A stretch of 64,000 nt of DNA from a virus (taxonomy: Duplodnaviria > Heunggongvirae > Uroviricota > Caudoviricetes): the IMG/VR virus record IMGVR_UViG_3300029305_011445; one strand, written 5' to 3'. Positions 12,071 through 53,597 of the stretch are shown here, piece by piece; position 1 is the first letter of the stretch; the number at the start of each line of letters is the position of its first letter. A program made the translations under genes and the position numbers. Below the pieces are notes generated by a model. It was not told the origin of the DNA. It saw only the letters and a list, made by a program, of their open reading frames with translations, and made no database searches.

Positions 12071-12106
12071 AGTTTATCTGCTCCTTTCATGGGTTTTGTT
12101 TTGCAG

Positions 12107-13637: not shown

Positions 13638-13694
13638 GAAAGAAATCGCAAAACAAAAAAACACGCATCAAACGATACGTGTTTCTTCTTTGTT

Positions 13695-14147: not shown

Positions 14148-14159
14148 TTTGTGTCCCTT

Positions 14160-14597: not shown

Positions 14598-14672
14598 TTT
14601 ATTTCTCCTTTTGAATTAATAGATGTACCTTATTGAACATTAGTAGTTCAATAAGCATGTATTTTGATACGA

Positions 14673-14684
14673 AATAAATATGGG
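14673..14684 (-). promoter_or_regulatory. consensus promoter motif
   Basis: CCCATATTTATT upstream of 14160..14597. Confidence 0.55.
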
Positions 14685-14735
14685 ACGTGAGGAATAAAAA
14701 AATGAGCCACATCACTGTGACTCATTTCTTTTGTG

Positions 14736-24278: not shown

Positions 24279-26033
24279 CTAAATCTTAAATTTGTTTACT
24301 TCTGTGCTTAATTTTGCAGCAATATTACTACAATTATCAGCTTCTATATTAATATCTGAAACAGAAGTTGTTAAATCAACGGTATGCGAAGCAACATTAC
24401 TGATACCGTTTGCAGTTTCTTCGATAGCAACACTGATTGCTTCGCTATTCTCTTTTAAGCCCTGCATATGAACATTGAGATTTTTGCATTCTTCTGCAAA
24501 AGTATTCATAATACTACTTAAGTGTTTAGCATCACGTTGATAATTTTCACTGGTTGTTAATAACTTATCATATCCAATCATAGCAACAGATTCCATAAAT
24601 GTTAACATTTCCTCTGCCTTTTGAGCCAATTCTGTAACTGTTTGAATAACATCTTCGCTTACGGTTTGGATTTCGGTCGCAGTTTCTGCTGAATGAGTTG
24701 CTAATTTTCCGATTTCACTTGCTACAACTGCAAATCCGCGACCAGCTTCTCCGGCTCTTGCTGCTTCTATTGATGCGTTTAATGATAACAAATTTGTCTG
24801 AGTGGTAATCTCTAAAATATTTTCAGTCATTGTCTTGATATCTTCAACTCGTTTGGACCGTTCAATCATTTCACTTACAGCAACACGCATTGCTTCAGCT
24901 TGTGTTTTCGCATCAATCTGCTCTTTTGTCGCCGTTTCATTAATAGTGTTTGCATTATTAGCGATTTTCAAGGTATTACTTTCTTCAATGCCTGCAGCTT
25001 CCGCAACCTGTTCTACTGATGTAACCACATCTTTAATAGCAGTATCCATCTGCGTCAAGGAAGCACTGATTTCTTCAATTGCAGCACCCATTTGTTCCAT
25101 TGTTGCAGAGACATCTGTGACTCTTGTTTCTGCATCTTTTAATTGTCCCGAAACCGTGTTTGACGATGTATGAAGCTCTGTTGAATTGTCATTAATATTT
25201 ATCATAATTCCGCGAATATAGACTAAAAATTTATTTACGTTATCAGCAATTAATTCTAATTCATCTCCGGTAGCTACATTAATTGTTTGAGTTAAGTCGC
25301 CTTCGTTACTTGCTAATTCGTGTAACTTTTCATTTACTCTCTTCATATTTTTAATGATTCTGTTTACAATTAAATAAACAATGATTGTGGCAACAATAAC
25401 ACCGAGTCCGGATACAGTAATTAATTCGATTACAACAGATTGTATATTATCCTTAATATATGTAGCGTCATAATCACATCCTAAGATGCCAAGTTGATTA
25501 CCTTCGCTATCATAAACTGGAACATAAGATGTGATATAAGCTTTATCACCATCCAATGTAAATTCTGATTCAGATAAGGCTGTTCCATTAAATACAGATA
25601 CCAAATATTCGTAATCTACTTCAAATAATTCTCCGATTTGTGCACGTTCTTCTGAATCTTCATCACTATCGACTCCATAGAATACATCTGTACCATTGGT
25701 ATAAAGAGTATATAAATAAGCGACGTTATATGTATTTTTAATTCTAGTAAGATCTTCCAATACGTCTTTATATTCTTTCGTTTCTTCAGCACCTTTATTT
25801 AATTTACTAAGAGAATCAGTATTAATTGATTTAGAAGCAAATTCAGCAACAATCATAGCTTCTTCACCACCAAGTGTTAAAAAGCCTTCGCTGATTTTAT
25901 AAAATGACTGTAATGTTAACATGGAACATAAAATAATAATGATAATGTTGATTGGTATAAGAATCTGCCATCTGATACTTAATTTTCTGCTCCCGTTATT
26001 CATTCGATGAAAAATACTTTTCTTTTTATTCAT
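24279..26033 (-). CDS. methyl-accepting chemotaxis protein with periplasmic sensor
   Basis: two TM helices around a sensor domain, then HAMP and signalling domain with [31 protein letters not shown]. Confidence 0.85.
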
Positions 26034-26086
26034 ATGATCCTCCTATACAAATTGTTAGACCTGATAGATATCAGGTCATAACAATA

Positions 26087-27865
26087 TCAATCCAATTTAA
26101 ATTTACGAACTTCATTTGTAAGTTCATCTGCAATCGCCTTATTATCCAATGCTGTTTTTTGAATTTCTGATACATCTGCATTTATCGCAGTTGTTGTATT
26201 TGCGATGCTGTTAACACCAGTTGTACTTTCTTCAATTGCAATATTGATCGCATTCATGTTTTCTAAGATCTTATGAATTGCCTGCTCAATATAATCCGTA
26301 GAATTGCAAAAAGCTTCCATCTGACGTCCCATTGTTTCAACATCTGTTTTATATGCAATACCTGTGTCTTTTAATTCATCGTATCCTTTCATTGCAACTT
26401 CATCTAAAAATGTAAGCATTCTTTCAGTTTGTTCGGCTAAAAGTTCTACAGCTGCAATTACTTCGTCGCTAACTTTTTTAATTTCATTCGCTGCATCCGC
26501 AGAAGTGTTTGCGAGTTTTCCAATTTCTGTTGCAACAACAGCAAATCCGCGACCGGATTGTCCGGCACGCGCGGCTTCGATACTTGCATTTAATGCTAAA
26601 AGATTTGTTTGGCTTGCAATTTCCAAAATATTCTCTGTTAATTTTGAAATTTGTGTTACAGCGTTGGAGCGTTCAAGACTTTCCTTGACATCAATTGTTA
26701 ATTGATCTGAAAGTTCTTTTGCTTTCGTAATATTTTCATCAACCTGTGACTCAATATTTGAAGCCTTTTTAACCGTTGCACGTGCGTCCATTTCACTCTG
26801 TTTTGCATATTTGGCAACATCGCCGGTTGTATCTGATACCTGTTTAATTAACGAACTAATTTCCACAATTGATGCACTCGTTTCTTCCATTGCAGCACTC
26901 ATCTGTTCCATTGTAGAAGAAACATCTGCGATTTCACTTTCTGAATCTGTAACCTTTTCTGTGATTGCAACTACAGAATCAGATAATTTAAGAGAATCAT
27001 CGCGAATACTAACCATAATAGCTCTAATATATGACAACAATGTGTTTACGTTTCCTGCAATTAATTCTAATTCATCGCCCGAATGAATATCTAAAGATTG
27101 TGTTAAGTCTCCGTTGTTGTTAGCAAGTTCACATATTTTTTCATTTACTTGGCGAATATTTTTAATGATGCCTTTTACGATTAAGCAAATAATTAATGAA
27201 TCAAATAGCAATGTTACAACTAGCACAAGAACCAATCTCGAAATCATTTGATATCTTATAGTCAAAATATTAGATGCGTCATAATCAATACATAATACTG
27301 CAGTTACATTTTCATCTGCATCAATAATTGGCTGATATACGGATAACAAATGTACATCATCTCCAAGATTTTTAATTACGGGGCTATTTGCTACAGTTCC
27401 GGAAAACGCTTTATTGATTAAATCAGAATCAACTAAATTCGTAGCAGCAGTTCCTACTTGTTTCGATGAATCAATATCGCTATTTAATCCATAAACAATT
27501 GAACCATTATTCGTTTTGTGTAAAGTATAAAACTGTTTCAAGTGTCCCTGTTCTAATAACATTTGTAGCGTTGTATTTATTGAAATAGCGTTTTCTTCAC
27601 TTAACAAGTTTTCATAATTAAGAGCTTCTGCGTCAATCAAATCTGACGCAATGGCCGCTATAGATTTTGCATTTTCAATTGCTAGATCACGATATTTATC
27701 GTTATAACCTTTTACGCTACTGTAACCAACTACAAAACAACCTGATATTACAACTAAAATAACAGGAACGAGTATTTTAAGTTGCAACGAAAATCGTCTT
27801 ACCTTTTGTTTTTCTTTTTTATCCCTCATTTTCTTTCTCTCCACTAAAAATTTTACTAAATTCAC
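26087..27865 (-). CDS. methyl-accepting chemotaxis protein (paralog)
   Basis: same architecture; [32 protein letters not shown]; start overlaps stop of upstream small ORF (ATGA). Confidence 0.85.
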
Positions 27866-28058: not shown

Positions 28059-29102
28059 CTATAAAAACTGTTTCAATTCGGTATAAGCTTTTCCGGTTCG
28101 GCAAAACTTAATAAAACGAGCTTCTACTTGACGAACACGTTCCCTTGTGAGACCATGATAATCGCCAATTGCTTCGAGAGTCTGAATTGTACGGCCATGT
28201 AATCCGAATCTTTTATACAAGATGTCTCTATTTCGGTTAACATTTGCAGGATTGGTTCGCCCACGCTCAAGAAATCTCTCAATCAATTCATCAAATTTTT
28301 CTGCCAGTTCTTTGTTTTCAGCAACAGCACTAATATCAAAATTTTCATCTGCAATGAAATCAATCATTTCAGATGATTCATCAATATCAGTAGATATAGC
28401 GCGGTTTAACGAATCTGTGTTTGCATTAAAATACGCACTGATAATATTGTTATACTGAAAGTCATTACATCCGAGTTTTTCTACCACATATTCTTTCGGT
28501 GGTAGAACATTAGAATTTGTTTCATCTTGAAACTCTTTAACGACTCTTGCGTAACGATAGACTTGTTCACTCATATGAACAGGAATTCGGATAATTGTAT
28601 CACCATCCATAATCGCTCTTGTAATGGACTGGCGAATCCAATGATAAGCATAGGTTGCAAATTTGAACCCCTTATCCGGGTCGAAACGATCAATGGCTTT
28701 CAAAAGTCCAAAGTTTCCTTCCATAATAATGTCCAATTCTGTAAGAGTTTTAGTATGTTTCATATATTTTTTTGCAACATAAACAACAAGTTTTAAGTTG
28801 TGTAAAAAAATCTTTTCTCTTGCTTCTGTGTCGCCTTCTTTTGCTTTTCGTGCCAAGTCACAAACTTCTTCATTTGATAACAACTGGTATTTTGCGATTT
28901 CTTTTAAATAACCAGCCATGTGATCAGATAAGTAGTGAGACTGGAATTCAACGCTTTCTTCAACCTTTTTAGAAGAAAGTGATTCGATTTCTGATAATTC
29001 GTCATTGTTATTAGTTGCATTATATTCATATAAAGATTCGGTTTCAAAATTTCCCTGATCCAAATCCTCGTGCTCTAAAACAAATTCATTCGTTAATGTC
29101 AT
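28059..29102 (-). CDS. RNA polymerase sigma-70 family factor with ~100-aa acidic N-terminal extension
   Basis: region 2 DIIMEGNFGLLKAIDRFDPDKGFKFATYAYHWIRQSITRAI; region 4 LTRERVRQVEARFIKF; exact promoter motif 29146-29157 ~45 nt upstream. Confidence 0.85.
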   Translation of the reverse strand: MTLTNEFVLEHEDLDQGNFETESLYEYNATNNNDELSEIESLSSKKVEESVEFQSHYLSDHMAGYLKEIAKYQLLSNEEVCDLARKAKEGDTEAREKIFLHNLKLVVYVAKKYMKHTKTLTELDIIMEGNFGLLKAIDRFDPDKGFKFATYAYHWIRQSITRAIMDGDTIIRIPVHMSEQVYRYARVVKEFQDETNSNVLPPKEYVVEKLGCNDFQYNNIISAYFNANTDSLNRAISTDIDESSEMIDFIADENFDISAVAENKELAEKFDELIERFLERGRTNPANVNRNRDILYKRFGLHGRTIQTLEAIGDYHGLTRERVRQVEARFIKFCRTGKAYTELKQFL

Positions 29103-29282: not shown

Positions 29283-29300
29283 CTTGGAAGTACTTCCAAG
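29283..29300. promoter_or_regulatory. perfect 18-bp palindrome CTTGGAAGTACTTCCAAG plus three GTACAAAA repeats (29302-29372) in the sigma/parA divergent region
   Basis: seen directly; ~160 nt upstream of parA, in a 300-bp ORF-free region. Confidence 0.6.
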
Positions 29301-29462
29301 CGTACAAAAACAGTTAAAACGTACAAAAGGAAGTGCTTCGCATAGAACAAAACAAGGAGAAATGTACAAAAAGAAATATATTTAAAATATTCTTATTGCA
29401 TATAACTGAAATATCGCTTATAATTTTCACTGTTAAAAAACTTTTGCGGGGAGAAAAAAGAA

Positions 29463-30332
29463 ATGATTATTACAACAAATACATCAAAGGGTGGCGAAAC
29501 AAAAACAAGCAGTACTGTCACGTTCGGTTCAATATTAGCTGTTGCCGGATATAAAGTGTTACTTGTTGATTCTGATCCGCAGCAAAATTTAACATATTTA
29601 TGTGCGACAGAAGATACAAATGTGAACCCTCCAATTGTTATTTATGATTTACTATTGCGAAGTTCAGTTGATGATAGTGAGCTAAAAGATGCAATTGTGA
29701 CAACAAAAATAAAAAACATGGATATGATTCCAGCAAATGATAGTTTGTATTTAGCACCATATCATTTATACGACAAAGTAGTTCACGAAGGCGAGACACA
29801 AAGTATATTAAATTTACGAAACAACTTAATGCGCATTCAAGAAATATTCGAATATGATTACATACTTATTGACACTCCACCTACGAAATCATATGCAGTT
29901 AATGCAACACTTGCTGCAGCAGATTATGTTGTTACCGGTATTTCACCGGATAATTTATCGTGGCAGGGTTTATCTGCGATGATACAAGCAGTTGATGACA
30001 ATAATGTTACTTATGCAAGAGATACGCAAGTTGCAGGTGTATTTTTAACAAGAGTCAACCCTCGTACAAATCGATACCGAGAAATGAGTGCTGGTTACAA
30101 ACAACTCTTAGGAGATATTTTCTTAAATAGTTTTGTTCGTACAAATGAAGAAATGGGTAAAGCGAACTCTTATATGGTTCCTATTGTATTGTTTAATAAA
30201 CGATGCGAAGTGATCGAGGACTATATTAATGTAATGATTGAATTAGGATTGCTTGACACAAATGATTGGCATTATCTCGAATTGCGGAAGTATTTAAGAA
30301 GCAACAATAGGCAGAAAGAAAGCGAGGATTAA
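29463..30332 (+). CDS. parA: ParA/MinD-family partition ATPase
   Basis: deviant Walker A-like SKGGETKTSS near N-terminus, LLVDSDPQ, ParA-like size (289 aa), immediately followed by parB. Confidence 0.75.
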   Translation: MIITTNTSKGGETKTSSTVTFGSILAVAGYKVLLVDSDPQQNLTYLCATEDTNVNPPIVIYDLLLRSSVDDSELKDAIVTTKIKNMDMIPANDSLYLAPYHLYDKVVHEGETQSILNLRNNLMRIQEIFEYDYILIDTPPTKSYAVNATLAAADYVVTGISPDNLSWQGLSAMIQAVDDNNVTYARDTQVAGVFLTRVNPRTNRYREMSAGYKQLLGDIFLNSFVRTNEEMGKANSYMVPIVLFNKRCEVIEDYINVMIELGLLDTNDWHYLELRKYLRSNNRQKESED

Positions 30333-30335: not shown

Positions 30336-31433
30336 ATGGCAGCAAACAGACAACCTATGATGCCGGGAATGACAAGTATCGGACAAATTGGAACAAGAGG
30401 TACCGGGTTAGGACAAATTCAGGCACAGAAAGCATCTGGTATCAATTATATTCCATACGATAATATTATCCCAAATAAGAAAAATAAACGATATGACCAA
30501 ATTGACATTGAATCGTTAAGTTATTCTATTGAAGATAGAGATTTGCTTCATAATTTAGTTGTTACGCCTTCCGAAACAAGTGGTATGTATGATTTAATAA
30601 GTGGTGAGCGAAGATGGCGCGCAATTGGACTGCTTAGAGATAGAAATCCAAAACGTTTTGAAGAATTATTTCCAGGTGGACTCATCCCATGTAAAGTTCA
30701 AGTACTCGATAATGTGGATGATGAAATTTCTTTGATAGTTGCAAACACTGAAGTTCGAAATATTAGTGTTAAAGATAAATTAAATGATGTAAGGCGGTTG
30801 GCAGAATTATACGCAATCAAATATGAAAATGAACCAAAGACAAATGTTTCTGAAATGATTGCAAAGCAATTAGCAATGTCAGAACGTCAGATTCGTAAAT
30901 ATATGAGTCTTGACAAACTAGTTCCAGAATTAATGCAAGCATTTGATGATGATATTTTAAATATCGAAGCAGCAAGTAAAATTGCTCTTCTAGGAGAGAC
31001 AGAACAATTGTATCTTGTTGATATATTAAACGAAACAGAAAAAATTACTGAAGATGATATTGTTGCTGCAAAGGCGTTACAGGTTCAAAAAGAGACTGCG
31101 TTAAAAGAAATCGATACAAAGCAGGAAGAAATTGCAGCATTAGAAGAAATGAAATCCATCGCAAAAACTACAGATGAAACTGAGTTCATTAATACTAGAA
31201 TTGAAGAACGTTTAAAAGCAATTGATGATACGAAGCAAAAATTATCTGATAGACAAATGCGAAAGCTTCGAAAAGTTGCGAAGGCTGGTAAAATTGTAGA
31301 TCAAACAACAGAAGCGATTGATAAACTCCAAAATATGATTGAACCAATCAAATCTGATACGACAATTATTCTTCGTCTTGAGATGCTACAAATGAAATTG
31401 AACCGATTGATTGAACAAGTAAAAAAAGAATAA
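30336..31433 (+). CDS. parB: ParB-family partition protein
   Basis: ParB/Srx N-domain GERRWRAIGLL; coiled-coil C-terminus; 3 nt after parA. Confidence 0.8.
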   Translation: MAANRQPMMPGMTSIGQIGTRGTGLGQIQAQKASGINYIPYDNIIPNKKNKRYDQIDIESLSYSIEDRDLLHNLVVTPSETSGMYDLISGERRWRAIGLLRDRNPKRFEELFPGGLIPCKVQVLDNVDDEISLIVANTEVRNISVKDKLNDVRRLAELYAIKYENEPKTNVSEMIAKQLAMSERQIRKYMSLDKLVPELMQAFDDDILNIEAASKIALLGETEQLYLVDILNETEKITEDDIVAAKALQVQKETALKEIDTKQEEIAALEEMKSIAKTTDETEFINTRIEERLKAIDDTKQKLSDRQMRKLRKVAKAGKIVDQTTEAIDKLQNMIEPIKSDTTIILRLEMLQMKLNRLIEQVKKE

Positions 31434-40319: not shown

Positions 40320-40371
40320 AATTTCACTCTCCCTTCTTTGTTCTCGTTTGTGATAGGATCACTGTTACGAA

Positions 40372-40383
40372 AATAAATATGGT
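40372..40383 (-). promoter_or_regulatory. consensus promoter motif
   Basis: exact copy upstream of DHH gene. Confidence 0.6.
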
Positions 40384-40384
40384 A

Positions 40385-40960
40385 TGTGGCACATTATCAC
40401 AATATAACATGTCATTTGTATGGTTTAAACATAACAATGAATTAAACATACATCATATGTACGGCCTTATCTGTAACAATAATATATTTATATAAAAATA
40501 TATTTATATAAATAATATATTGTATCAGAATTAATACTGTAATCAAAATAATATTGTAACAAATAATAATTGTAACAATAATAATACTGAATCAATAATA
40601 TTGTTTAACTATAGTTACAATGTATCTAGTATTACATAGTAAACAGGATTTATTATAATCTCGTAACAGTAATAATACCGAACCAATAATATTGTTTAAC
40701 TATAGTTACAATGTATCTAGTGTTACATAGTAAACAGGATTCATTATAATCTCGTAACATTAGTAATACTGAATCAATACAACACTGTAACAATAATAAT
40801 ACTGAACCAATAATACTGTTACGTAACTATAGTTACAATGTATCTAGTGTTACATAGTAAACAGGATTCATTATAATCTCGTAACAACAATAATACTGTT
40901 ACAGAATAATACTGAATCAGATATTATTTGTTACAAGATAAGGTCCATTTTTGGGTGCGG
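40385..40960. repeat. complex tandem-repeat region: three ~115-125-bp direct repeats plus >=10 TGTAACA/TTGTTACA heptads
   Basis: units starting ~40587, ~40676, ~40800 share ...aatattgtttaactatagttacaatgtatctagtgttacatagtaaacaggattcattataatctcgtaaca; each contains 12-bp palindrome TAACTATAGTTA. Confidence 0.8.
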
Positions 40961-41031
40961 CGAAGTAAATTTTTCAAATTCGGCAATTTGTACAAAAAAA
41001 AAAAGAGACTCAATCGAGTCTCCCTTATAAA

Positions 41032-41136
41032 TTATTTTTCTTCATCATCTTTTACAGTAATGATGATCTGCTGTGGTAATAAGCCTAAAAGCGGGCTCAC
41101 TTCTTCCCCAACAGTTCTTTTGATTTCAATCTGCAT
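41032..41136 (-). CDS. 34-aa micro-protein
   Basis: track ORF trimmed to ATG 41136 (AAGGAG RBS) because promoter motif 41169-41180 lies inside the longer ORF; MQIEIKRTVGEEVSPLLGLLPQQIIITVKDDEEK; hairpin terminator after stop. Confidence 0.4.
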   Translation of the reverse strand: MQIEIKRTVGEEVSPLLGLLPQQIIITVKDDEEK

Positions 41137-41168
41137 ACTTTTGTCTCCTTTTCGTATTTTCTTGATGT

Positions 41169-41180
41169 AATAAATATGGC
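41169..41180 (-). promoter_or_regulatory. consensus promoter motif
   Basis: GCCATATTTATT upstream of micro-ORF 41032..41136. Confidence 0.5.
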
Positions 41181-41221
41181 ACATGAATATTACAAAACAA
41201 ATTACTTTGCAAGATGATAAA

Positions 41222-41233
41222 ACCATATTTAAA
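41222..41233 (+). promoter_or_regulatory. consensus promoter motif
   Basis: ACCATATTTAAA upstream of 41270. Confidence 0.55.
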
Positions 41234-41269
41234 ATACAGTTTTCATAAATCGAAAAACAGGAGGATAAA

Positions 41270-42781
41270 TTGATGAAAAAGAATTATGGCAGAATTATTA
41301 CTGCTGCATTAATGGTGTTGACATTAAGCGTATTTACTGGATGTGGTTCTTTTTGGTCGTTAGACTTTTTAAGCAAAGTACCAACGGCAGAGGAATTATT
41401 AGATCAGTCTTATGAAGTAACGCAGGACACCTATCTTGACGCAGATATGAAGATGGACATCAAAGCACTTATGGATATGAGTGGATTGATGGGTGAGTCA
41501 TCTGGATCGAGTGCAACAATGGAAATGGCAATCTGTTTAGATGCTAATATTGTCAGTGACAATACGACTCAGCACATGAAGGGTGACATGGACGTTAATG
41601 TTTTTGGAATGAATATGCAAATTCCGGTAGAAACATATACCGCTATCCATGATGATACCGCTACAGTTTTTGATTATAGCGCTGATTATGAAATATGGAC
41701 AATGGATGAAACGAGCATTGAAGATTCGTCATTTATTGATTTAATGAGTATTATTAAAGGATTACCGGCTGAGATGTTTGAATCTTATGAGCTAAAAGAG
41801 CTTGAAGATAAAGATGCAGATTACATCATTACAGGTGTAATTGATATGGCGAGTCTTATGAATTTATTAGGATCTGATACAGAGTCATTACTTGGTACTA
41901 CTGAATTAACAACAGATGCATTCGACGTTAGTAAGCTGGTAATGAATGCAACAATCGTTTTTGATAAAGAAACTTTAATGCCTGTTTCGTATGCGTTTTA
42001 TATCGATCCAGAATCTGTAACAGTAGAAGACGCTGGTGTTGAAAAATTTGATATTGAAATTGTTATCAATGATGTAAATGAAACTGGAAAAGTTATAATA
42101 CCAGACGATGTGATTGATGCAGCAATTGGTAATTCAATAGATTACGAATCAGAATCAGAACCGGATATCATAATTGAAACCGGAGATGGTGTTGTTTTAG
42201 TCGAACCTGAATCAGAAGATGTTAATCCGGAAATTGTTTTGGATCAGGATGTTGATGGAATCGATAACTGGACTACATATGAATTCAATGTAAATGGAAC
42301 AACAATGCTGCTTCCTTGTACGTATGCAGAATTTAAAAATGCAACAGGATGGGCGATGAAACCTGCAGATGAAAAATCATATTTAGAAGGTGGTTATTAT
42401 ACATCTGTTAATCTTTACAACGAAGCTGAGGATTTAATGTGTTATATCAGTATTGCAAATCCTACAGATGGTGATCTTTGTTACGCAGATGCAACAGTGA
42501 TGAAAATTAATCAATCATCATATAATGTTGAGCAGGGTTCACATGTAATTACATTCCCGTATAATTTAAAAGTTGGTATGGAAATTACTCCTGATATGCT
42601 CAAGACGTTAATTGGTGAACCATCTGATACATATGAATATCTTGACAATCCAGATTATCAATCGTATACATATACTTGGAACGAGCATGAAAGATATATC
42701 AATGATAGTTTTGAAGTCAATATTGTAAATAATGTTATTGAAGAAATTGAATTAAGTGCTGAAAGTTATGCATTCCAGTAA
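41270..42781 (+). CDS. acidic lipoprotein, unknown function
   Basis: MMKKNYGRIITAALMVLTLSVFTGCGS lipobox; promoter motif 41222-41233; terminator 42789-42816. Confidence 0.7.
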   Translation: MMKKNYGRIITAALMVLTLSVFTGCGSFWSLDFLSKVPTAEELLDQSYEVTQDTYLDADMKMDIKALMDMSGLMGESSGSSATMEMAICLDANIVSDNTTQHMKGDMDVNVFGMNMQIPVETYTAIHDDTATVFDYSADYEIWTMDETSIEDSSFIDLMSIIKGLPAEMFESYELKELEDKDADYIITGVIDMASLMNLLGSDTESLLGTTELTTDAFDVSKLVMNATIVFDKETLMPVSYAFYIDPESVTVEDAGVEKFDIEIVINDVNETGKVIIPDDVIDAAIGNSIDYESESEPDIIIETGDGVVLVEPESEDVNPEIVLDQDVDGIDNWTTYEFNVNGTTMLLPCTYAEFKNATGWAMKPADEKSYLEGGYYTSVNLYNEAEDLMCYISIANPTDGDLCYADATVMKINQSSYNVEQGSHVITFPYNLKVGMEITPDMLKTLIGEPSDTYEYLDNPDYQSYTYTWNEHERYINDSFEVNIVNNVIEEIELSAESYAFQ

Positions 42782-44008: not shown

Positions 44009-44028
44009 TTAAAAAGGTGGGTTTAAAA

Positions 44029-45639
44029 ATGAGGGAAAAGAAAAGCAGAAAATCGTTATTGTCTTCGTTTAAGACACAATTACTGGCAATGAGTATTTTA
44101 CCAATGTTATTTTCGTTATTGGTTGTTCTTATTGTAGCAATTACTGGGATGAGAAATCTTGCACAAACTATGATGTATGACAAATTTGAATGTACATCAA
44201 TTTTAGTGCAAAACTCCTCTCAGGATACAATTGATGCGGAAATGAAGGCGATTGCAGAAGAACAGGATATGATACTTTCATTCTTGAAGCAGGGAAAGAT
44301 TGTTTATTCAACCAATCTGGAATTAATTGGATCTGCTTCCGATATTACCGAAACAGAACATTCATTAGTAAGACATACAGTTAATAACATTGAATATTTA
44401 TCAGCAACTTTTGAAATGCGGGATGGATCGACATTACTTGTTAGTGAAGAACGTAATACTTATTTAAATTTATTATCTCCGTATCAAGTGAAAATGTTTT
44501 GGACCGGCGTTGCGATGTTAATCAGTGCGATCATAATTATCTTCGTATTAAGCACTCGTATTGCAAAAATACTTGGGGCTGTAAGAGATATCGTTCATGA
44601 GGTTGGTAGGGGTAATCTTAATAATGATTATGATGAGAAATTATTATCTCGAAAAGATGAAATTGGTTCTATTTATCGAAATACAAAAAGCATGGATGAA
44701 ATGTTTATGGACGTTGTGTCAAAAATGCGATCAACGATTAATGGATTAAATGATTCTGCAGAAACTATTAAAGTATCTGTAGATACTTGTCTTGAAAATA
44801 CGAACGGAATAGAATCAGCTGTTGAAGAAGTTGCGCAAGGTGCCTCACAACAAGCAAATGAGTGTACAACCGGAACAGGTGCTACTGCAGAAATTAATCA
44901 GTTTATAGATGGTGTTGTTATCGAATCAAATGGGCTTAAAGCGGTTTCTGATAACATGTTCAGATTGAAAGATGTATCTCTTGAATCATTAAATCAACTG
45001 GTTGAGCATAATGAGGACAACACAATTGCAATAAAAGATATTGCGAAACAGATTGCAGAAACGAATGAATCGATCACAAATGTAATTGAAATCATTCAAA
45101 AGATTGAACAAATTAGTAGCCAAACAAATTTACTTTCGTTAAACGCGTCTATTGAAGCAGCAAGAGCTGGAGAAGCAGGACGTGGTTTTGCGGTTGTAGC
45201 GAGTGAAATTGGGAAACTTGCGGAACAAACATCAGCGTTGACAAAAGAAATTACAGATCATGTTGCAATTCTTAATTTAAATTCGGAAAATTCATTGCAG
45301 ATGATGTCCGGAGTTAGTGAGAGCGCTATCGCACAGTCGAAATTAATTACGTTGACCAAAGATGGTTTCTCTGAATTAGATCAAAATATCAATCAATCTG
45401 TTTCTAGCATTAATGCCATCGCTAAAGCAATGGATGAGTTATCTACTCAGTCTGCAAATTTAGTTGATACATTATCAAGTTTATCTGCAATCTCTGAGGA
45501 AAATGCAGCATCCGCAGAAGAGTGCTCTGCATCTGTTGTATCTCTTAATGGCACCATGGAAGATTTGAAGCAAAAGGTTAATGTGCTCGAAGGGAATAAA
45601 AATGCATTAATTAAACTTGTGGAATTTTTCCATGTTTAA
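44029..45639 (+). CDS. methyl-accepting chemotaxis protein
   Basis: start moved to ATG 44029 (AAAGGTGG RBS); TM helix, [35 protein letters not shown]. Confidence 0.85.
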
Positions 45640-48948: not shown

Positions 48949-49137
48949 ATGTTTGGATCAAATAGTAAACAGCAGTGTGGATTTTCCACATGCTTAAATC
49001 AAAATTGTGGTATTTTGTTTTGTAGCAAAAATATAAAACGTAATAAGAATCGAGATAAGCGATTTGGGTTTTATGAAAATACAAAACACTGTTTAAAGTC
49101 AAAATTGAAAGGTGTGTTGACCGGTCATGGAAAATAA
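48949..49137 (+). CDS. small Cys-containing protein
   Basis: start ATG 48949 (AGGAGG +8); variant motif TCATATTTATA at 48917-48931. Confidence 0.35.
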   Translation: MFGSNSKQQCGFSTCLNQNCGILFCSKNIKRNKNRDKRFGFYENTKHCLKSKLKGVLTGHGK

Positions 49138-49816
49138 TGTAATAGTGCAAAATATTGAAACAGAGTTACCTTTGGTTACAGGCCGAACAATGTTAGGCCT
49201 TCTTATGGTTCAGGGCGAATTACAAGCTGGATATGATCGGTACAAAGATGAAGAAGTAGAAGAAGTGTTGATGCGCGTAAAAGAATATTCGCAATGGGCA
49301 TATGATCAAGGTCTTATTTCTGAACAAAATAAGATGTTATCTGTGCATCAAGCAGAATGTATCAAACAGATCAATGCATTGCAATCCACGCATTCATTCG
49401 GAGATATTTTAGGTCCGTTACAAAGTTTTATGTATGAAGATGGAGCAAATGTAAATAGGGTCCTTTCGCGTCAAGAGTGGTCGGCATTTCATTCTTGTGT
49501 ATGTGACATTTTAATTAACATGACAAGCCCGAACCGAAAAGAGCGTTTTAACGAACTAATTTGTGACGTAAGAAGTAGTATCGTATTATATTGTTTCAAT
49601 ATATGGCTGGAACAAAATATTGATGAATGTAAAGATCTTCGATACGGTGAGCAATTACGAAAATGGGTAAGTAGTAAAATGGGGATTAAAGTTCGAGATA
49701 TTATGGATGAGGCGGTGGCGAAAGCGATAGCTCATAAAGATATAAAATATATTTTGTTTGCAGGAGATGTTTTGCCAGATATTGTTCGAAATAAGAATAA
49801 TGATTACGTAGAATAA
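49127..49816 (+). CDS. hypothetical protein
   Basis: 229 aa, overlaps previous ORF by 11 nt. Confidence 0.5.
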   Translation: MENNVIVQNIETELPLVTGRTMLGLLMVQGELQAGYDRYKDEEVEEVLMRVKEYSQWAYDQGLISEQNKMLSVHQAECIKQINALQSTHSFGDILGPLQSFMYEDGANVNRVLSRQEWSAFHSCVCDILINMTSPNRKERFNELICDVRSSIVLYCFNIWLEQNIDECKDLRYGEQLRKWVSSKMGIKVRDIMDEAVAKAIAHKDIKYILFAGDVLPDIVRNKNNDYVE

Positions 49817-49825
49817 TATTTGATT

Positions 49826-49874
49826 AAGGTATATACTTTATAAGGTATATACCTTTTATAAAGTATATATAGTG
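49826..49874. repeat. left inverted-repeat arm bounding the ori-like module
   Basis: AAGGTATATACCTTttatAAAGTATATATAGTG (49842-49874) is the reverse complement of 51211-51244 (CACTATATATACTTcgtgcgAGGTATATACCTT) apart from the 4-6 nt spacer; AAGGTATATACCTT is itself palindromic. Confidence 0.75.
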
Positions 49875-50002
49875 AAACTGTACTCTTTCGGGTCGGATGG
49901 TTTTTCTGCCTTTTATTCCGACACGTAAGATTGTCTTTTAATAATTTTGGTTTCGAAGTTTTAAGTGTCAGTACTAACTGGCACTTTTTCTTTACCCGTT
50001 AT

Positions 50003-50071
50003 CTCTGGTTTCGGAACATCTCTGGTTTCGGAGTACTTCTGGTTTCGGGGTATCTCTGGTTTCGGGGTATA
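50003..50071. repeat. 4x tandem 17-18-nt repeat (a)TCTCTGGTTTCGGrgTA
   Basis: tctggtttcgg at ~50003, 50020, 50038, 50055. Confidence 0.8.
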
Positions 50072-50242
50072 TCTTATCTCAACATTCCTTATCCCTAATA
50101 TACCTTTCTTCAAATGTATCACTATGCCATATCTTTGTTTCAAACAATTTTGGGACAGTAAATTCTCGCATCAAGAAATGTTCGAAGCAGTAGTATTGCA
50201 GCGCACTTGTTTCGAGACTTTTTCGGTTTCATATATCATTTC

Positions 50243-50890
50243 TACATCACTTAACTGAGGCAGTTATGTTGATATCAGTACTACTTTATTCTTTAATACA
50301 CCATGTAGCTGATGTAATTTGAAACCAGAATTGTTATAGATGCATCATCTAGTTGGGGTGGTTATTTTTGTTTCGCGGATGTTTACGAAGCCAAATACCT
50401 CATGTTAGTGATGTAGTTCTGAAACTAAGGTTATATTAGATACATCATCTAGCTGGGGTAGTTATAATTATTGATACAGAATATTTCGGATCAAATATAT
50501 CATCTAAGTGGGGTAGTTTTGGAGCCGGAACATCCATAGATACATCATCTAACTGGGGTAGTGGAGTATTGATTCTATAATTTTTCTGATATAAATACAT
50601 CATGTAGCTGAGGCATTTCTGGTTTCGTATTATCTTCTCTACCTCGTCTTATTGGTGTGATTGGCTATTAAATACATCATCTAGCTGATGTAGTTGTCAT
50701 GAGATAATGATAAATTTAGCACCATGATATATCACGTAGCTGAGGTAGTTTGAAACCAGAATTATTATAGATACCTCATCTAACTGGGGTAGTTATATTT
50801 CGGTACAGAGGAAATTTTTAATAAATACATCACGTAGATGAAGTAGTACGTACCAAAATAATAGGTACCTCATTTTGCCGGGTTAATTAT
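50243..50890. repeat. iteron-like array: ~13 degenerate copies of a ~24-bp element (consensus aTACATCAtcTAgCTGgGGTAGTt) at 43-77-bp spacing
   Basis: copies at ~50243, 50296, 50339, 50395, 50440, 50494, 50539, 50593, 50670, 50727, 50772, 50823, 50866; two subtypes (..TAGCTGATGTAGTT with CATCA/TGATG inverted arms, and ..TAaCTGGGGTAGTT); longer unit TGAAACCAGAATTrTTATAGATrC repeated at ~50320 and ~50750. Confidence 0.8.
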
Positions 50891-51210
50891 CACTCGAAAC
50901 CAGCATTCCCAGTTTCAGATATATTTGCTAGAAGAATTGATTGTATAGTGCATGTGGTGTTGTTCGCTAGAAGAGTTATATCGAAACAAGAGGTGTTGCA
51001 AAAAAAAAAAAAGAATTATGTGTGCAGGTAAGATTTTGAGAAAAGGAAAAGTGAGAAAGGGATGTTATTTTAAAACCAGATAGATTAGTTTGAAAGATGG
51101 CGGTGCAAAATACGGTGCACCTAAAAAAAACAAAAAAAAAGACGAATCCGCTTCGGAAATCGGTGCAGGAAAAGCGCACCGAAAAGAACCCGAAACGAAA
51201 GGTACATGTT

Positions 51211-51263
51211 TCACTATATATACTTCGTGCGAGGTATATACCTTGTAAAGTATATACCTTATT
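51211..51263. repeat. right inverted-repeat arm bounding the ori-like module, immediately upstream of the relaxase promoter
   Basis: see left arm; followed by a second AAAGTATATACCTT copy and then promoter motif 51280-51291. Confidence 0.75.
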
Positions 51264-51279
51264 TTTCGATAAATCACAT

Positions 51280-51291
51280 ACCATATTTATT
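51280..51291 (+). promoter_or_regulatory. consensus promoter motif
   Basis: exact copy upstream of relaxase gene. Confidence 0.6.
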
Positions 51292-51328
51292 CCCGGAACA
51301 AAAATTAATAGAAAGGTTGGTGCAGAAA

Positions 51329-52630
51329 ATGAGAGCACATGAACATACTGGAACAAGAAATAATACAACAAACTTTACTGCAAAACCTGTAAAACTTGCG
51401 CATCGAAATCAAATAAAGGGTATGACAATCCATAATGGTCGACTTGAAGCTGAAACAGGGAAGGATCTTCGTGAAAATGTAGATGAAAAAAGAACTCATT
51501 TAAACGACGTTTTGATTGGTGACAAAACAATGGATCTGTATTACGAAACTATTAAACGAATTTCCGGGAAAGATATATCAAAAGAAGATGTTGAAGATTT
51601 AGAATTTGAAAATATCAAATTTGCAAATGGAAGAAAAGTTCGAAAAGATGCAAATGTGCTGGAATGCCAATCCCAGTATCCAGGAAAAATGGTACACGCA
51701 AAACTTGATGAATACGGAAAGGTTCAGATTTTACCAGAAGGAACTGAATTTTCAGATGCTGATATCGATAAAGGCGGAGACGATGTTTTTTCGTATCCAG
51801 CAGATATGGAAGAATTTAATCGTTGGAAAGAGTTAACAATGAATTATATGGCGGAACGATTTGGTGGCAGAGAAAATATCATTCAAGCGGTATGTCATAT
51901 GGATGAAAGTATTCCCCACATCCATGCATATATCGTTCCGATGTATCACGACGTCAAGAGTAATACAGATAAACTTTCTTTGAAACATTATCTATCCGGG
52001 CCAAGATGCTTTGATGAATTACAAACCGAGTATGCAGCGTATATGAGTGAATTAGGTTATCGCCGCGGAACAAAAAGTTCTCCGGTTAAAGTAACCCCTC
52101 AGACAGCCACTCAGTTTCGAAACAGTGCTGCACGCGTACTATCTACAGTTCCAGACTCCCCTACTGCGGCAAGACAATTTGTAAACGAATTAAGTGACCA
52201 AGAATTATACGAAGAACTAAGAGGAGCTGGCGTGCAATTATATATTGCAAAAGATAAAGTCAAGAAAACAGAAACAGCATTGGCAAGCAGCAATCGTATT
52301 ATTACAAAACAATCTGATACAATCAAGAAAAAAGATGAAGAAATTAAACATCTCAAAGAACAGATTGAAGAACAAAAAAGAGAACTTGCAAAAGCACAAC
52401 TTCAAGCTCAACGTAGATTATGCGAAAAACAAGGGCTTCAAAAATGTGATGACAAAGAAGCTGTTGATGTGTATTTGCAATTTCAGGAACAATTAGTTGA
52501 AGATGGATTAGAGGTATTAAAGCTCGCCGGTCTCGACATCAATTTAAACGGTATTGATGATCGTGTCGAAAATTACATTGATAAAGACAATAATGGTATC
52601 GATGATAGACTAGAAGATAATAATAATTAA
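51329..52630 (+). CDS. MobV/Pre-family relaxase (plasmid recombination/mobilization enzyme)
   Basis: start moved to MRAHEH (ATG 51329, AAAGGTTGG RBS); motif III HMDESIPHIHAYIVP (HxDExxPHxH); N-terminal LAHRNQ (HxxR-like); C-terminal coiled coil. Confidence 0.8.
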   Translation: MRAHEHTGTRNNTTNFTAKPVKLAHRNQIKGMTIHNGRLEAETGKDLRENVDEKRTHLNDVLIGDKTMDLYYETIKRISGKDISKEDVEDLEFENIKFANGRKVRKDANVLECQSQYPGKMVHAKLDEYGKVQILPEGTEFSDADIDKGGDDVFSYPADMEEFNRWKELTMNYMAERFGGRENIIQAVCHMDESIPHIHAYIVPMYHDVKSNTDKLSLKHYLSGPRCFDELQTEYAAYMSELGYRRGTKSSPVKVTPQTATQFRNSAARVLSTVPDSPTAARQFVNELSDQELYEELRGAGVQLYIAKDKVKKTETALASSNRIITKQSDTIKKKDEEIKHLKEQIEEQKRELAKAQLQAQRRLCEKQGLQKCDDKEAVDVYLQFQEQLVEDGLEVLKLAGLDINLNGIDDRVENYIDKDNNGIDDRLEDNNN

Positions 52631-52667: not shown

Positions 52668-52854
52668 TATCTTTTGAAGAATAAGAGAATCCATACCGAA
52701 CTGGATCCAGACGTTCTGTCTTGCGGGTTTCTTTTGAAAACGGATAATCAAATGCAGAACACCATTCTCGTGTAGAAACAACACGGTTTGTTTTTATACA
52801 TTTTAAAAGCCCTGATGATTTGTTACAAAAACGACACATTATACAACTATCCAT
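52645..52854 (-). CDS. small Cys-rich protein overlapping 3' end of sigma gene (candidate anti-sigma or partner)
   Basis: ATG 52854 overlaps sigma stop (ATGGATAGTTGTATAA coupling); CIMCRFCNKSSGLLKC; the bidirectional terminator hairpin 52638-52667 is placed after this ORF, not directly after the sigma gene. Confidence 0.4.
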   Translation of the reverse strand: MDSCIMCRFCNKSSGLLKCIKTNRVVSTREWCSAFDYPFSKETRKTERLDPVRYGFSYSSKDKPLQRIP

Positions 52855-53597
52855 TGATTAACCTCCTTACTCTGTTTCATCTTGTTTAAAGCTTTTCTGT
52901 GAATCTGAGAAATTCTGGATTCGGTTACATTAAGAACCAGCGCAATTTCCGCAATTGTCATATCTTCGTAATAAATCATTCGAATCACGTCGCGTTCTCG
53001 GTCCGTAAGTTTGCTCATTGCTAAATCCAGTATGCGATGTAAATCTTCTTGTAGCGCATTTAATTCACAAACATTAAATGAATCATGACCCAGTATATCA
53101 AATGAATACTCATCACCATCTGGTGAGAATAAAATTGCATCCAAAGATGATGCCTCTTCTAAAGTAGCTAATTGTTCCAAATTCGTAAATTCTTTACTTG
53201 AAAGTTTACTAACAGATAACAACTGTTGACGAGTATAATTAGGACCGTATGTATCTTGTGCTATAATACAAAATTGTTTGAATCGCTTTTGTTGATCCCT
53301 GGTACTACGTTTAATCTGATCAAAAGTTCTTAAGTTATCAACAATAGACCCTTTGATCCTATGAGATGCATAAGTTTCAAATTTAACATCCAAAGACGGG
53401 TTGTATTTTTCAATCGCGTCAAGAAGACCTAAAATACCGAAGCTTTCATAATCCGACTGTTCTAAAAGATACGAAGCCGTTTTTGCATATAATTGTGCAG
53501 CCAAAAGCTTTACTAGACCGGCATATTCTTTTATCAATAATTCCCGATACCGGGGTTCTCCGGTCTCTTTATATAATTCAAGATTCGTTTTATCCAT
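52839..53597 (-). CDS. FliA/WhiG (sigma-28) family sigma factor
   Basis: 252 aa; region 2 ILGLLDAIEKYNPSLDVKFETYASHRIKGSIVDNLR; region 4 MTIAEIALVLNVTESRISQIHRKAL; variant motif AATAAATATGTT at 53625-53640. Confidence 0.8.
   Translation of the reverse strand: MDKTNLELYKETGEPRYRELLIKEYAGLVKLLAAQLYAKTASYLLEQSDYESFGILGLLDAIEKYNPSLDVKFETYASHRIKGSIVDNLRTFDQIKRSTRDQQKRFKQFCIIAQDTYGPNYTRQQLLSVSKLSSKEFTNLEQLATLEEASSLDAILFSPDGDEYSFDILGHDSFNVCELNALQEDLHRILDLAMSKLTDRERDVIRMIYYEDMTIAEIALVLNVTESRISQIHRKALNKMKQSKEVNQWIVV

What the first reader, a model, noticed from the sequence alone, without database searches (positions are those of the whole stretch)
49826..51263. ORF-free 1.4-kb module bounded by 33-bp inverted repeats, lying between the cargo genes and the MobV relaxase
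The left arm AAGGTATATACCTTttatAAAGTATATATAGTG (49842-49874) is the reverse complement of the right arm 51211-51244 apart from the short spacer. Each arm contains the self-palindromic 14-mer AAGGTATATACCTT, with an extra copy on each side. The right arm sits ~35 nt upstream of the relaxase promoter, the classic position of a MobV oriT or operator. Inverted repeats framing a repeat-laden segment could mark (a) oriT plus oriV of a mobilisable module, (b) an invertible or excisable segment acted on by the adjacent Pre/Mob enzyme (Pre proteins do catalyse site-specific recombination), or (c) a non-autonomous insertion.
Basis: seen in the sequence. Interest (0 to 1): 0.75.

Follow-up and report, generated by a model that had tools for sequence, protein, structure and literature searches.

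The report
Repeat-packed control region of a relaxase
The 1.5-kb gene-free stretch is a real, conserved block of protein-binding DNA repeats in front of a DNA-nicking (relaxase) gene of a giant phage- or plasmid-like element; it most likely marks where that enzyme starts DNA transfer or replication, and it is not a jumping or flipping segment.

Summary
The inverted arms run about 90 nt (49825-49914 / 51170-51261), not 33. Between them lie 4.4 tandem 17-bp iterons and 13 same-orientation copies of a 24-nt quasi-palindrome. No ORF in the interval matches a protein family.

The left arm, on the relaxase-coding strand, mimics the pMV158 oriT: hairpin ACTTTAT...ATAAAGTATA followed by TAGTG. The right arm overlaps the -35 area of the relaxase promoter (CCATATTT box, 51281-51288). 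The relaxase keeps the MobM catalytic motifs.

Every large relative of this relaxase clade (26-38% identity) has a 0.3-2-kb array of palindromes upstream, and several also have iterons. One relative also has flanking inverted arms. More distant Mob_Pre loci almost all lack arrays. In seven strain variants of one relative the palindromes vary at 3.9% of columns, against 12.8% for the rest of the module.

Best reading: the relaxase's own nick-and-operator region (oriT and/or rolling-circle origin), plus arrays bound by proteins not yet identified. Inversion or excision found no support here, and insertion is unlikely. A separate vegetative origin is better placed at 40.3-41.3 kb. This is a new variant of a known kind, and the function of the arrays is unresolved.

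The parts
49825..49914 (.). Left inverted arm. It holds three 14-bp boxes (49826-49839 AAGGTATATACTTT, 49842-49855 AAGGTATATACCTT, 49860-49873 AAAGTATATATAGT) followed by GTGAAACTGTACTCTTTCGGGTCGG.
   Evidence: (I1)
49830..49869 (+). Hairpin of the left arm. The outer arms are TATATACTTTATAA / TTATAAAGTATATA, 14 nt and perfect. As single-stranded DNA dG is -10.1 kcal/mol with z = -4.3. It matches ACTTTAT...ATAAAGTATA of the pMV158 oriT IR1.
   Evidence: (I10); PMC3105389
49870..49878 (+). TAGTGAAAC, the unpaired tail just 3' of the hairpin. This is the putative nick region, by analogy with pMV158 ATAGTGTG/T. Inferred only.
49963..49992 (+). Terminator-like hairpin plus T-run. It probably ends transcription of the upstream gene after the left arm.
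50000..50074 (+). 4.4 tandem 17-bp iterons, consensus TATCTCTGGTTTCGGAG (core TCTGGTTTCGG, four exact copies).
   Evidence: (D5, D6)
50242..50888 (+). Array of 13 copies of the 24-nt quasi-palindrome ATACATCATCTAGCTGGGGTAGTT. Spacing alternates about 45 and 55 bp, giving a 100-bp super-unit. Reversed iteron cores (GAAACCAGA) are interleaved at 50319-50329 and 50750-50760, with one more just past the array at 50894-50904.
   Evidence: (D1-D4, D7)
51000..51182 (+). Purine-rich stretch next to the relaxase gene. It contains A13 (51000-51012), A8CA9 (51123-51140) and two G+C hairpins, GGTGCA..TGCACC (51102-51121) and CGGTGCA..GCGCACCG (51160-51182).
51170..51261 (.). Right inverted arm, the mirror of the left one. 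Boxes lie at 51213-51226, 51231-51244 and 51247-51260. The nick-like GTTTCACTA (51208-51216) lies on the inner side and reads TAGTGAAAC on the - strand.
51281..51288 (+). CCATATTT, the element-wide promoter box of the relaxase gene. The outermost box of the right arm covers the expected -35 area, so it could act as an operator.
51329..52630 (+). MobV-family relaxase, 433 aa, with motifs H35-N-G-R38 and H190-M-D-E-x-x-P-H-x-H199.

Best explanation
The interval 49817-51328 is cis-acting DNA that belongs to the adjacent MobV-family HUH nickase. It is not a gene, an RNA or a mobile insertion.

Shown:
- Two inverted arms of about 90 nt flank the interval. Each arm carries three 14-bp palindromic boxes that fold into a strong hairpin, followed on the inner side by TAGTGAAAC.
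- The left arm, on the relaxase-coding strand, reproduces the layout of the pMV158 oriT: hairpin, then ATAGTG, then the nick.
- The right arm abuts the relaxase promoter box.
- The relaxase keeps the catalytic His and HxDE..PHxH motifs.
- The segment between the arms holds iterons and 13 quasi-palindromes. Such arrays are conserved upstream of this relaxase clade, and the palindromes are under purifying selection in relatives.

Inferred:
- The relaxase binds the arm hairpins and nicks next to TAGTG. The resulting 5' end leads strand transfer (oriT function), or the 3'-OH primes rolling-circle synthesis, as relaxases of integrative elements can do.
- Binding at the right arm represses the enzyme's own promoter.
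- The iterons and palindromes are double-stranded binding sites for further proteins not yet identified, possibly including the dimeric relaxase. Together they would build a large nucleoprotein complex that assists or limits initiation.

Because the nick-like motif is on the inner side of both arms, initiation at either arm would send the repeat module out first.
For: Arms. The alignment scores 95 against a shuffle maximum of 35. The 14-mer occurs 6 times against 0.37 expected. Only the arms are strongly structured as single-stranded DNA in a sliding-window fold, with z about -4.6.

oriT likeness. pMV158 reads ACTTTATgaatATAAAGTATAGTGTG/T (PMC3105389). The window reads ACTTTAT..ATAAAGTATATATAGTG. 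The pattern ACTTTAT-N4-20-ATAAAGTATA occurs only at the left arm, against 0.01 expected. In pMV158 the oriT overlaps the mobM promoters, and the authors propose that MobM binding to it silences mobM expression (PMC5863519).

Enzyme. Mob_Pre scores 7.7e-17. NCBIfam MobV scores 96 bits against a cut-off of 100. The MobM structure sequence aligns over HMDESIPHIH. H35, N36, R38, H190, D192, E193, P196, H197 and H199 are invariant in 14 clade members.

Promoter. CCATATTT occurs 47 times against 4.7 expected, mostly 35-55 nt before start codons. One copy lies at 51281 and none lies inside the module.

Conservation. Arrays upstream of the relaxase are present in L005, L007, L008, L009, L011, L013 and L044-L050. 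L005 also has flanking inverted arms, scoring 54 against a shuffle maximum of 27. Among the 80 IMG/VR loci (viral-contig collection) with Mob_Pre relatives, only L044-L050 carry palindrome arrays. Of the other 73, one (L066) has an unrelated 41-bp tandem repeat and the rest have nothing comparable.

Selection. Palindrome columns are variable at 3.9%, against 12.8% for the rest of the module (Fisher p = 5e-5) and 5.7% for the relaxase gene.
Against: No nick site has been demonstrated. The sequence after TAGTG (AAAC) differs from pMV158 (TG/TT).

The coding-strand copy, which resembles pMV158 best, lies 1.45 kb from the gene. The copy next to the gene has the opposite orientation, which is not the canonical layout.

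The array motifs resemble neither the arm boxes nor any known relaxase site. The 12-nt centre of the palindrome is better conserved across relatives than the relaxase itself (26% identity to L044). This points to another binding protein, which was not found.

No coupling protein or mating-pore gene was seen in the 64 kb. The pMV158 family is small rolling-circle plasmids, whereas this element is at least 136 kb. In relatives the relaxase shares its promoter type with RecJ, SSB, FEN and RNase T genes, which fits replication or repair as well as transfer. L007-L009 have arrays but no flanking arms.
Confidence: 0.5

Rival explanations
1. Vegetative origin or copy-control locus that does not depend on the relaxase. 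An unidentified initiator would bind the 17-bp iterons and the palindromes, and the A-runs would serve as the unwinding element. The oriT-like arms would merely be neighbours.
For: Tandem iterons are present, with reversed copies giving the module an overall dyad symmetry. AT skew flips from -0.42 to +0.47 across the module. L005 has more than 25 forward and many reversed iterons. In L044 the module appears to lie between divergently transcribed genes, judged by reading the sequence. The relaxase neighbours replication and repair genes.
Against: No Rep-family protein was found among the neighbours or the large unknown proteins. No DnaA box lies in the module. The gene-strand and GC-skew switch of the window is at about 40-41 kb, where another AT-rich repeat region lies, and its palindrome TAACTATAGTTA recurs in L005. 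The 17-bp spacing is out of helical phase, and iteron counts above 50 in L005 are unusual for an origin.
Confidence: 0.2
2. Centromere-like partition site. The 13 spaced palindromes would act like F sopC and be bound by the element's ParB.
For: ParA (29463-30332) and ParB (30336-31433) are encoded in the window. Many spaced palindromic sites arranged in tandem super-units are typical of sopC-type centromeres (from memory). The arrays evolve by tandem duplication: L005 has 102-bp units that are 100% identical.
Against: The array is 19 kb from parAB. parAB has its own perfect 18-bp palindrome CTTGGAAGTACTTCCAAG just upstream. In L011, parB is likewise followed by different repeats, while the hairpin array sits next to the relaxase. 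The one gene consistently next to the array is the relaxase, not parB.
Confidence: 0.1
3. The palindromes act as hairpins in a single strand. They would fold either in the transferred or rolling-circle-displaced + strand (priming or single-strand-origin function) or in a long non-coding RNA.
For: Pooled over all loci, stems show G.T pairs more often than A.C (64 against 23), and the + strand folds slightly better (Wilcoxon p = 1e-3 to 1e-5). The + strand is the relaxase-coding strand, which is the transferred strand in pMV158 (PMC5863519).
Against: In the window itself both strands fold equally and weakly (-1.4 kcal/mol as DNA). The consensus copy has an A.G mismatch in mid-stem. Sliding-window z-scores over the array are unremarkable. 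L007 shows the opposite bias, and the copies are not independent. There is no Rfam match and no promoter box inside the module, and a terminator lies before it.
Confidence: 0.08
4. Invertible or excisable segment recombined at the arms by the Pre/Mob enzyme, or a non-autonomous transposon bounded by terminal inverted repeats.
For: Long inverted arms are present. Pre proteins are known to recombine at their RSA/oriT sites (established knowledge).
Against: The one assembly that spans the module (L001) has the window's orientation, and L002 and L003 agree at the right arm. All seven variants of the related L044 module are collinear. No serine or tyrosine recombinase or transposase family was found among the neighbours scanned. 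No target-site duplication is visible, and there is a single copy in 64 kb. Comparable modules with diverged motifs occupy the same place in distant relatives.
Confidence: 0.04

Closest known systems
oriT / mobM control region of pMV158 (MOBV1 relaxase MobM)
   Same: The relaxase has the same catalytic motifs. An A+T-rich hairpin (ACTTTAT / ATAAAGT) is followed by ATAGTG on the coding strand. The repeats overlap the relaxase promoter, which allows self-repression.
   Different: Here the oriT-like unit is duplicated in inverted orientation 1.3 kb apart. The copy most like pMV158 is the distal one. Between the two copies lie iterons and 13 palindromes, which pMV158 lacks. The host element is at least 136 kb rather than a 5.5-kb rolling-circle plasmid.
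Relaxase-driven rolling-circle replication of integrative elements (ICEBs1 NicK/oriT); recalled from memory, not tested here
   Same: An HUH relaxase acts next to its own gene. A UvrD/PcrA-like helicase is encoded in the window at 21970-24171. In relatives the relaxase shares its promoter type with replication and repair genes.
   Different: The relaxase family is different. No repeat arrays or twin inverted nick regions are described for ICEBs1. Nothing here shows that replication occurs.
Repeat-array centromeres and maintenance elements (F sopC, 12 x 43 bp; EBV oriP family of repeats); from memory
   Same: There are many regularly spaced palindromic protein-binding sites in tandem super-units. 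The sites are more conserved than the spacers.
   Different: The array is not adjacent to parAB, which has its own palindrome. It is mixed with a second, asymmetric iteron motif and is tied to a relaxase gene.
Iteron-type plasmid origins (pSC101, P1, F); from memory
   Same: Direct repeats occur together with inverted or palindromic sites close to the promoter of the adjacent gene.
   Different: There is no Rep-family gene and no DnaA box. The 17-18-bp spacing is out of helical phase. Repeat numbers are very large in relatives.

Membership tests
MOBV (Mob_Pre) relaxase | N-terminal motif I (HxxR, with the catalytic His) and motif III (HxDE...PHxH) | tested here: met
   H35-N-G-R38 and H190-M-D-E-S-I-P-H-I-H199 are present. 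They align to MobM (4lvi) and are invariant in 14 clade members. Pfam Mob_Pre scores 62 bits against a cut-off of 25.5. NCBIfam MobV scores 96.2 bits, just under its cut-off of 100.
MOBV1-type oriT (pMV158 type) | Inverted repeat forming a hairpin 5' of the nick, followed by a short conserved single-stranded tail | tested here: met
   The left arm on the + strand has a 17-pair stem, dG -10.1 kcal/mol, z = -4.3, and an unpaired tail TAGTGAAAC. ACTTTAT..ATAAAGTATA is shared with pMV158.
MOBV1-type oriT (pMV158 type) | Conserved nick sequence GTGTG/TT | tested here: inconclusive
   ATAGTG is shared, but AAAC follows in place of TG/TTATAC.
MOBV1-type oriT (pMV158 type) | Lies directly upstream of the relaxase gene on its coding strand and overlaps its promoter | tested here: inconclusive
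   The arm that overlaps the promoter (51170-51261) has the nick-like motif on the non-coding strand. The coding-strand copy is 1.45 kb upstream.
MOBV1-type oriT (pMV158 type) | Site-specific cleavage by the cognate relaxase, and mobilisation | not testable with these tools
   This needs a nicking assay and a mating assay.
Iteron-type oriV | Tandem direct repeats next to a gene for a Rep initiator | tested here: not met
   Iterons are present, but no Rep family was found in ORF 49127-49816 or the other neighbours.
Iteron-type oriV | DnaA boxes and an A+T-rich unwinding element | tested here: not met
   No TTATCCACA with up to 1 mismatch lies within 49817-51328. G+C of the module is 0.347, the same as its flanks. 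Only two A-runs are present.
ParABS centromere (sopC-like) | Array of palindromic ParB sites adjacent to the parAB operon | tested here: not met
   The palindromes are arrayed, but parAB is 19 kb away and has its own 18-bp palindrome.
Invertible DNA segment | Adjacent site-specific recombinase, and both orientations present in a population | tested here: not met
   No recombinase family was found among the neighbours scanned. The only orientation seen is that of the window: L001 across the module, L002 and L003 at the right arm, and seven collinear variants of the related L044 module. The sampling is small.
MITE / non-autonomous transposon | Terminal inverted repeats with a target-site duplication, and several copies per genome | tested here: not met
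   Inverted arms are present, but the flanks (..TTTGATT | ATTTTTCG..) are not duplicated. The motifs are confined to this locus in 64 kb.
CRISPR array | Near-identical repeats, unique spacers of constant length, usually cas genes | tested here: not met
   The repeats are 63-100% alike, the 'spacers' resemble each other (D3, D4 and D7), and their lengths alternate.
Known structured RNA | Match to an Rfam covariance model | tested here: not met
   There is no match at gathering score. The best E-value is 0.27 at 23.6 bits against a gathering score of 100.

The most novel reading that the evidence does not exclude
The module and the MobV-type enzyme together form the replication origin and initiator of a family of giant phage-plasmid-like elements (75 kb to over 300 kb). 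A relaxase-family HUH nickase would have been recruited as a replication initiator. It would act at twin, inverted nick sites that bracket a dyad-symmetric field of iterons and palindromes, which set the frequency or direction of initiation.
Probability: 0.2. Interest if true: 0.8.

Novelty: new variant of a known kind. Interest (0 to 1): 0.55.

Why it matters
The relaxase-plus-oriT unit is textbook. A 0.3-2-kb field of palindromes, in several relatives with iterons, conserved upstream of one relaxase clade and bracketed in two elements by inverted oriT-like arms, was not found in the papers searched.

The elements that carry it are large, uncultivated and common in metagenomes. One relaxase cluster has 620 members, on contigs of up to 316 kb. 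These elements mix plasmid traits (ParAB, relaxase) with phage-like traits (own sigma factors, one promoter motif before most genes, and relatives classified as viral in IMG/VR, the viral-contig collection).

If the module is their origin of transfer or replication, it gives a handle for three things:
- recognising and orienting these genomes;
- building vectors for their hosts;
- asking how an HUH nickase is controlled by a large array of binding sites.

The palindromes are clearly selected, yet no binding protein is known, which makes this a well-defined experimental question.

Tried and rejected
- DNA similarity of the module and of 24 kb around it to PLSDB plasmids and GenBank phages found nothing.
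- Single-protein searches of genome contigs and viral contigs with the relaxase found no close relative.
- A scan of metagenome contigs for the 18-mer shared by both arms gave 30 hits, all chance; none is related by blastn or tblastn. The search for inversion variants of this exact element therefore failed.
- pMV158 (NC_010096) is not in the plasmid collection, so its oriT was taken from the papers.
- Rfam and tRNA scans were negative.
- The sigma-70-type promoter scan was at chance level. The real promoter signal turned out to be the CCATATTT box.
- CCATATTT was first considered as a conserved nick site. This was rejected because it precedes most genes of the window.
- Hairpin function of the palindromes was tested with G.T against A.C counts and strand-specific energies. 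The pooled data show a bias, but the window shows none and the copies are not independent, so this is left as a minor rival.
- The 81-aa ORF at 51097-51342, called by the source annotation, is rejected as a gene. It is lysine-rich because of the A-runs, has no family hit and spans the arm.
- ORF 49127-49816 as a Rep or binding protein: no family, no solved relative, and not conserved next to the arrays of relatives.
- A search for a Rep among the large unknown proteins found nothing.
Full report
**What is there**

The interval between the stop codon of ORF 49127-49816 and the start of the relaxase gene at 51329 is 1512 bp. It contains:
- A pair of inverted arms. The repeat finder reports 49825-49904 / 51182-51261, 80 nt and 79% complementary. 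A gapped alignment extends them to 49825-49914 / 51170-51261, with score 95 against a maximum of 35 in 100 shuffles.
- Three 14-bp boxes of the AAGGTATATACCTT type in each arm, at about 17-18-bp spacing, followed on the inner side by an identical 18-mer AAGTATATATAGTGAAAC.
- A terminator-like hairpin at 49963-49992.
- 4.4 tandem 17-bp iterons at 50000-50074, with core TCTGGTTTCGG.
- 13 same-orientation copies of the quasi-palindrome ATACATCATCTAGCTGGGGTAGTT at 50242-50888. Spacing alternates about 45 and 55 bp. Reversed iteron cores are interleaved with the copies.
- A purine-rich stretch with an A13 run, an A8CA9 run and two G+C hairpins.

None of these motifs is common in the window. The 14-mer occurs 6 times against 0.37 expected, and the palindrome 7 times against 0.06 expected. 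The short ORFs inside the interval have no family match.

**The neighbouring enzyme**

The 433-aa protein is a Mob_Pre/MobV relaxase:
- Pfam Mob_Pre scores 7.7e-17, and NCBIfam MobV scores 96 bits against a cut-off of 100.
- It aligns to the MobM relaxase domain (PDB 4lvi) across HMDESIPHIH.
- In an alignment of 14 clade members, H35-N36-x-R38 and H190-x-D-E-x-x-P-H-x-H199 are invariant.

It is thus very probably an active nickase.

**The arms look like an oriT**

The minimal pMV158 oriT is ACTTTATGAATATAAAGTATAGTGTG/ (PMC3105389). It lies on the coding strand upstream of mobM and overlaps the mobM promoters, and the authors propose that MobM binding there silences its own expression (PMC5863519).

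The left arm reads, on the relaxase-coding strand, ACTTTAT-N16-ATAAAGTATATATAGTG-AAAC. The pattern ACTTTAT-N4-20-ATAAAGTATA occurs only there in the window, against 0.01 expected. As single-stranded DNA this arm forms a 17-pair hairpin (-10.1 kcal/mol, z = -4.3) that leaves TAGTGAAAC unpaired. In a sliding-window fold the two arms are the only strongly structured parts of the interval.

Related relaxase genes also have ACTTT/AAAGT-type hairpin boxes just upstream, for example L004 with ACTTTAcaTAAAGT, and L006, L008 and L013. The nick position itself is only inferred.

**The promoter**

The 8-mer CCATATTT occurs 47 times in the window against 4.7 expected. About 38 copies lie 35-55 nt upstream of start codons on the gene's strand, preceded by a T-rich TTTTGTTTTG(C/T)A element. 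One copy sits at 51281-51288, 19 nt beyond the right arm, so the outermost arm box covers the expected -35 area. No copy lies inside the module.

Variants of the box precede the relaxase genes of the relatives. In L008 and L011 they also precede RecJ, SSB, FEN and RNase T genes. The module is therefore probably not transcribed from within. The relaxase appears to be expressed with the element's replication and repair genes.

**What the element is**

- The window is essentially identical to a 136-kb JGI metagenome contig, and the same protein also occurs on a 158-kb contig.
- It encodes ParA and ParB, three chemoreceptors, a PARP, Pnkp/RNA ligase, PhoH, a UvrD-like helicase, RecJ, RecU and two sigma factors.
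- It has no DNA match in PLSDB or GenBank phages.
- Its helicase is about 25% identical to those of large Bacillus and Listeria myoviruses.
- Relatives of the relaxase sit on contigs up to 316 kb, and some are classified as viral in IMG/VR, the viral-contig collection.

I treat it as a giant phage-plasmid-like element. Capsid or mating genes were not seen in the 64 kb.

**Comparative evidence**

This is the main new result. Every large-element relative of the relaxase that could be fetched has a gene-free repeat array directly upstream.

| Locus | Relaxase identity | Array upstream of the relaxase |
|---|---|---|
| L005 | 30% | More than 25 forward 18-bp iterons, then at least 10 palindromes TATCATGTAGATGATA interleaved with reversed iterons in 102-bp units; flanking inverted arms 7858-7895 / 9898-9934 (score 54, shuffle maximum 27) |
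| L007, L008, L009 | 31-32% | 10, 25 and 20 copies of GGTATCA-N8-TGATACC |
| L011 | 32% | 11 copies of TACCAnTAAGrTGGTA |
| L013 | 30% | Copies of GTGTCAGTTAGGTGGCAC |
| L044-L050 (IMG/VR) | 26% | 2.1-kb module with 9 forward and 3-4 reversed copies of ATATCATCTAGCTGGTA, TTTCG-type iterons, a pyrimidine-rich left half and a purine-rich right half |

Further points:
- The 12-nt centre of the L044 palindrome, ATCATCTAGCTG, is the same as in the window consensus. The best window copy, at 50672, shares the full 14-nt ATCATCTAGCTGAT.
- L004 (37% identity, in a MAG contig with Abi and MatE genes) has only a short classical upstream region.
- Of the 80 IMG/VR loci with Mob_Pre relatives, only L044-L050 have such arrays. 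One other locus, L066, has an unrelated 41-bp tandem repeat.
- In the seven L044-L050 variants, 91-95% identical over the module, palindrome columns vary at 3.9%. The rest of the module varies at 12.8% (Fisher p = 5e-5) and the relaxase gene at 5.7%. The sites are under purifying selection.

The array is therefore a functional trait tied to this relaxase clade, not an accident of this contig.

**What the arrays are not**

- *Insertion.* The position is conserved and the sequences have diverged. There is no target-site duplication, and only one copy in the window.
- *Invertible segment.* There is no evidence for one. L001 is collinear across the module, L002 and L003 match the window at the right arm, the seven L044-type variants are collinear, and no recombinase was found nearby. 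The sampling is small.
- *Known RNA.* There is no Rfam match.
- *Strand folding.* Pooled over all loci, stems favour G.T over A.C (64 against 23) and the + strand folds slightly better. In the window both strands fold equally and weakly. The consensus copy carries an A.G mismatch, and the array is not unusually structured. I therefore read the palindromes as double-stranded binding sites.
- *ParB centromere.* parAB lies 19 kb away and has its own perfect 18-bp palindrome. In L011, parB also has separate repeats.
- *Independent vegetative origin.* No Rep gene and no DnaA box is present. The strand and GC-skew switch of the window lies at 40-41 kb, next to a second gene-free, A+T-rich repeat region. 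Its palindrome TAACTATAGTTA recurs in L005.

**Most likely mechanism**

Confidence is about 0.5. The relaxase recognises the arm hairpins. It nicks beside TAGTG to start strand transfer and/or rolling-circle synthesis. It represses its own promoter through the right arm. The iterons and palindromes bind further, unidentified protein(s) to form a large complex that helps or limits initiation.

Which of transfer or replication is served, and what binds the arrays, remains open. That this relaxase shares a promoter type with replication and repair genes, and that no other initiator was found, keeps alive the more novel reading that this is the element's relaxase-driven replication origin (probability about 0.2).

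**Verdict**

The feature is real. The inversion idea found no support here, and the insertion idea is unlikely. This is a new variant of a known kind, of moderate interest.

Noticed in passing
whole window; e.g. 41223, 42834, 43666, 48006, 51281, 53678, 54458 (+) and 40375, 38513, 29149, 24213, 16982 (-): The 8-mer CCATATTT(ATT), preceded by a T-rich TTTTGTTTTG(C/T)A element, occurs 47 times against 4.7 expected. Most copies lie 35-55 nt upstream of start codons on the gene's strand. This looks like an element-specific promoter, and two sigma-factor genes are present (28059-29102 and 52839-53597). Variants precede relaxase, RecJ, SSB, FEN and RNase T genes in relatives.
   Followed up: partly
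window 40320-41270; L005 4150-5650: A second gene-free, A+T-rich repeat region lies between RecJ (- strand) and the + strand genes, at the GC-skew minimum. It has three copies of TAACTATAGTTA (40606, 40697, 40824) within repeats of about 100 nt. The same palindrome recurs in the equivalent region of L005. It is a candidate vegetative origin or a regulatory switch region.
   Followed up: partly
window 29283-29371: A perfect 18-bp palindrome CTTGGAAGTACTTCCAAG lies inside two 43-bp repeats, about 100 bp upstream of parA (29463-30332) and parB (30336-31433). It is a candidate parS or par operator.
   Followed up: partly
window 51000-51182; L044 3400-3520: Between the palindrome array and the right arm lie A13 and A8CA9 runs and two G+C hairpins built on GGTGCA (87-nt fold z = -4.5). 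L044 has GGTTGCAAA / GGTGCA boxes in the same relative position, which suggests a third conserved motif.
   Followed up: no
window 8910-16937: A cluster of unusual cargo genes: an SPFH protein, a PARP-domain protein (10841-12070), an HNH/DUF4379 zinc-finger nuclease (12179-13573) and a Pnkp-like kinase-phosphatase-RNA ligase (14736-16937). IMG/VR relatives carry PARG and an intein-containing RtcB next to the relaxase. The family therefore seems to carry ADP-ribosylation and RNA-repair functions.
   Followed up: no
window 24279-27865 and 44017-45639: Three methyl-accepting chemotaxis protein genes are carried on an extrachromosomal, phage-like element.
   Followed up: no
L046, inside the palindrome copy equivalent to L044 2895: One strain variant carries a 74-bp insertion that has its own inverted repeat (GGAGAGATTAGGTTTAAACCTAACTCTCC). 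It splits one palindrome copy.
   Followed up: no
L005 8413-8512 and 9324-9422: Runs of N interrupt both repeat arrays of L005. The true copy numbers there are unknown and probably higher.
   Followed up: no
L066 3218-3545: A distant Mob_Pre locus in IMG/VR has about eight tandem 41-bp repeats some 450 nt upstream of the gene. This is a different kind of array from the one studied here.
   Followed up: no
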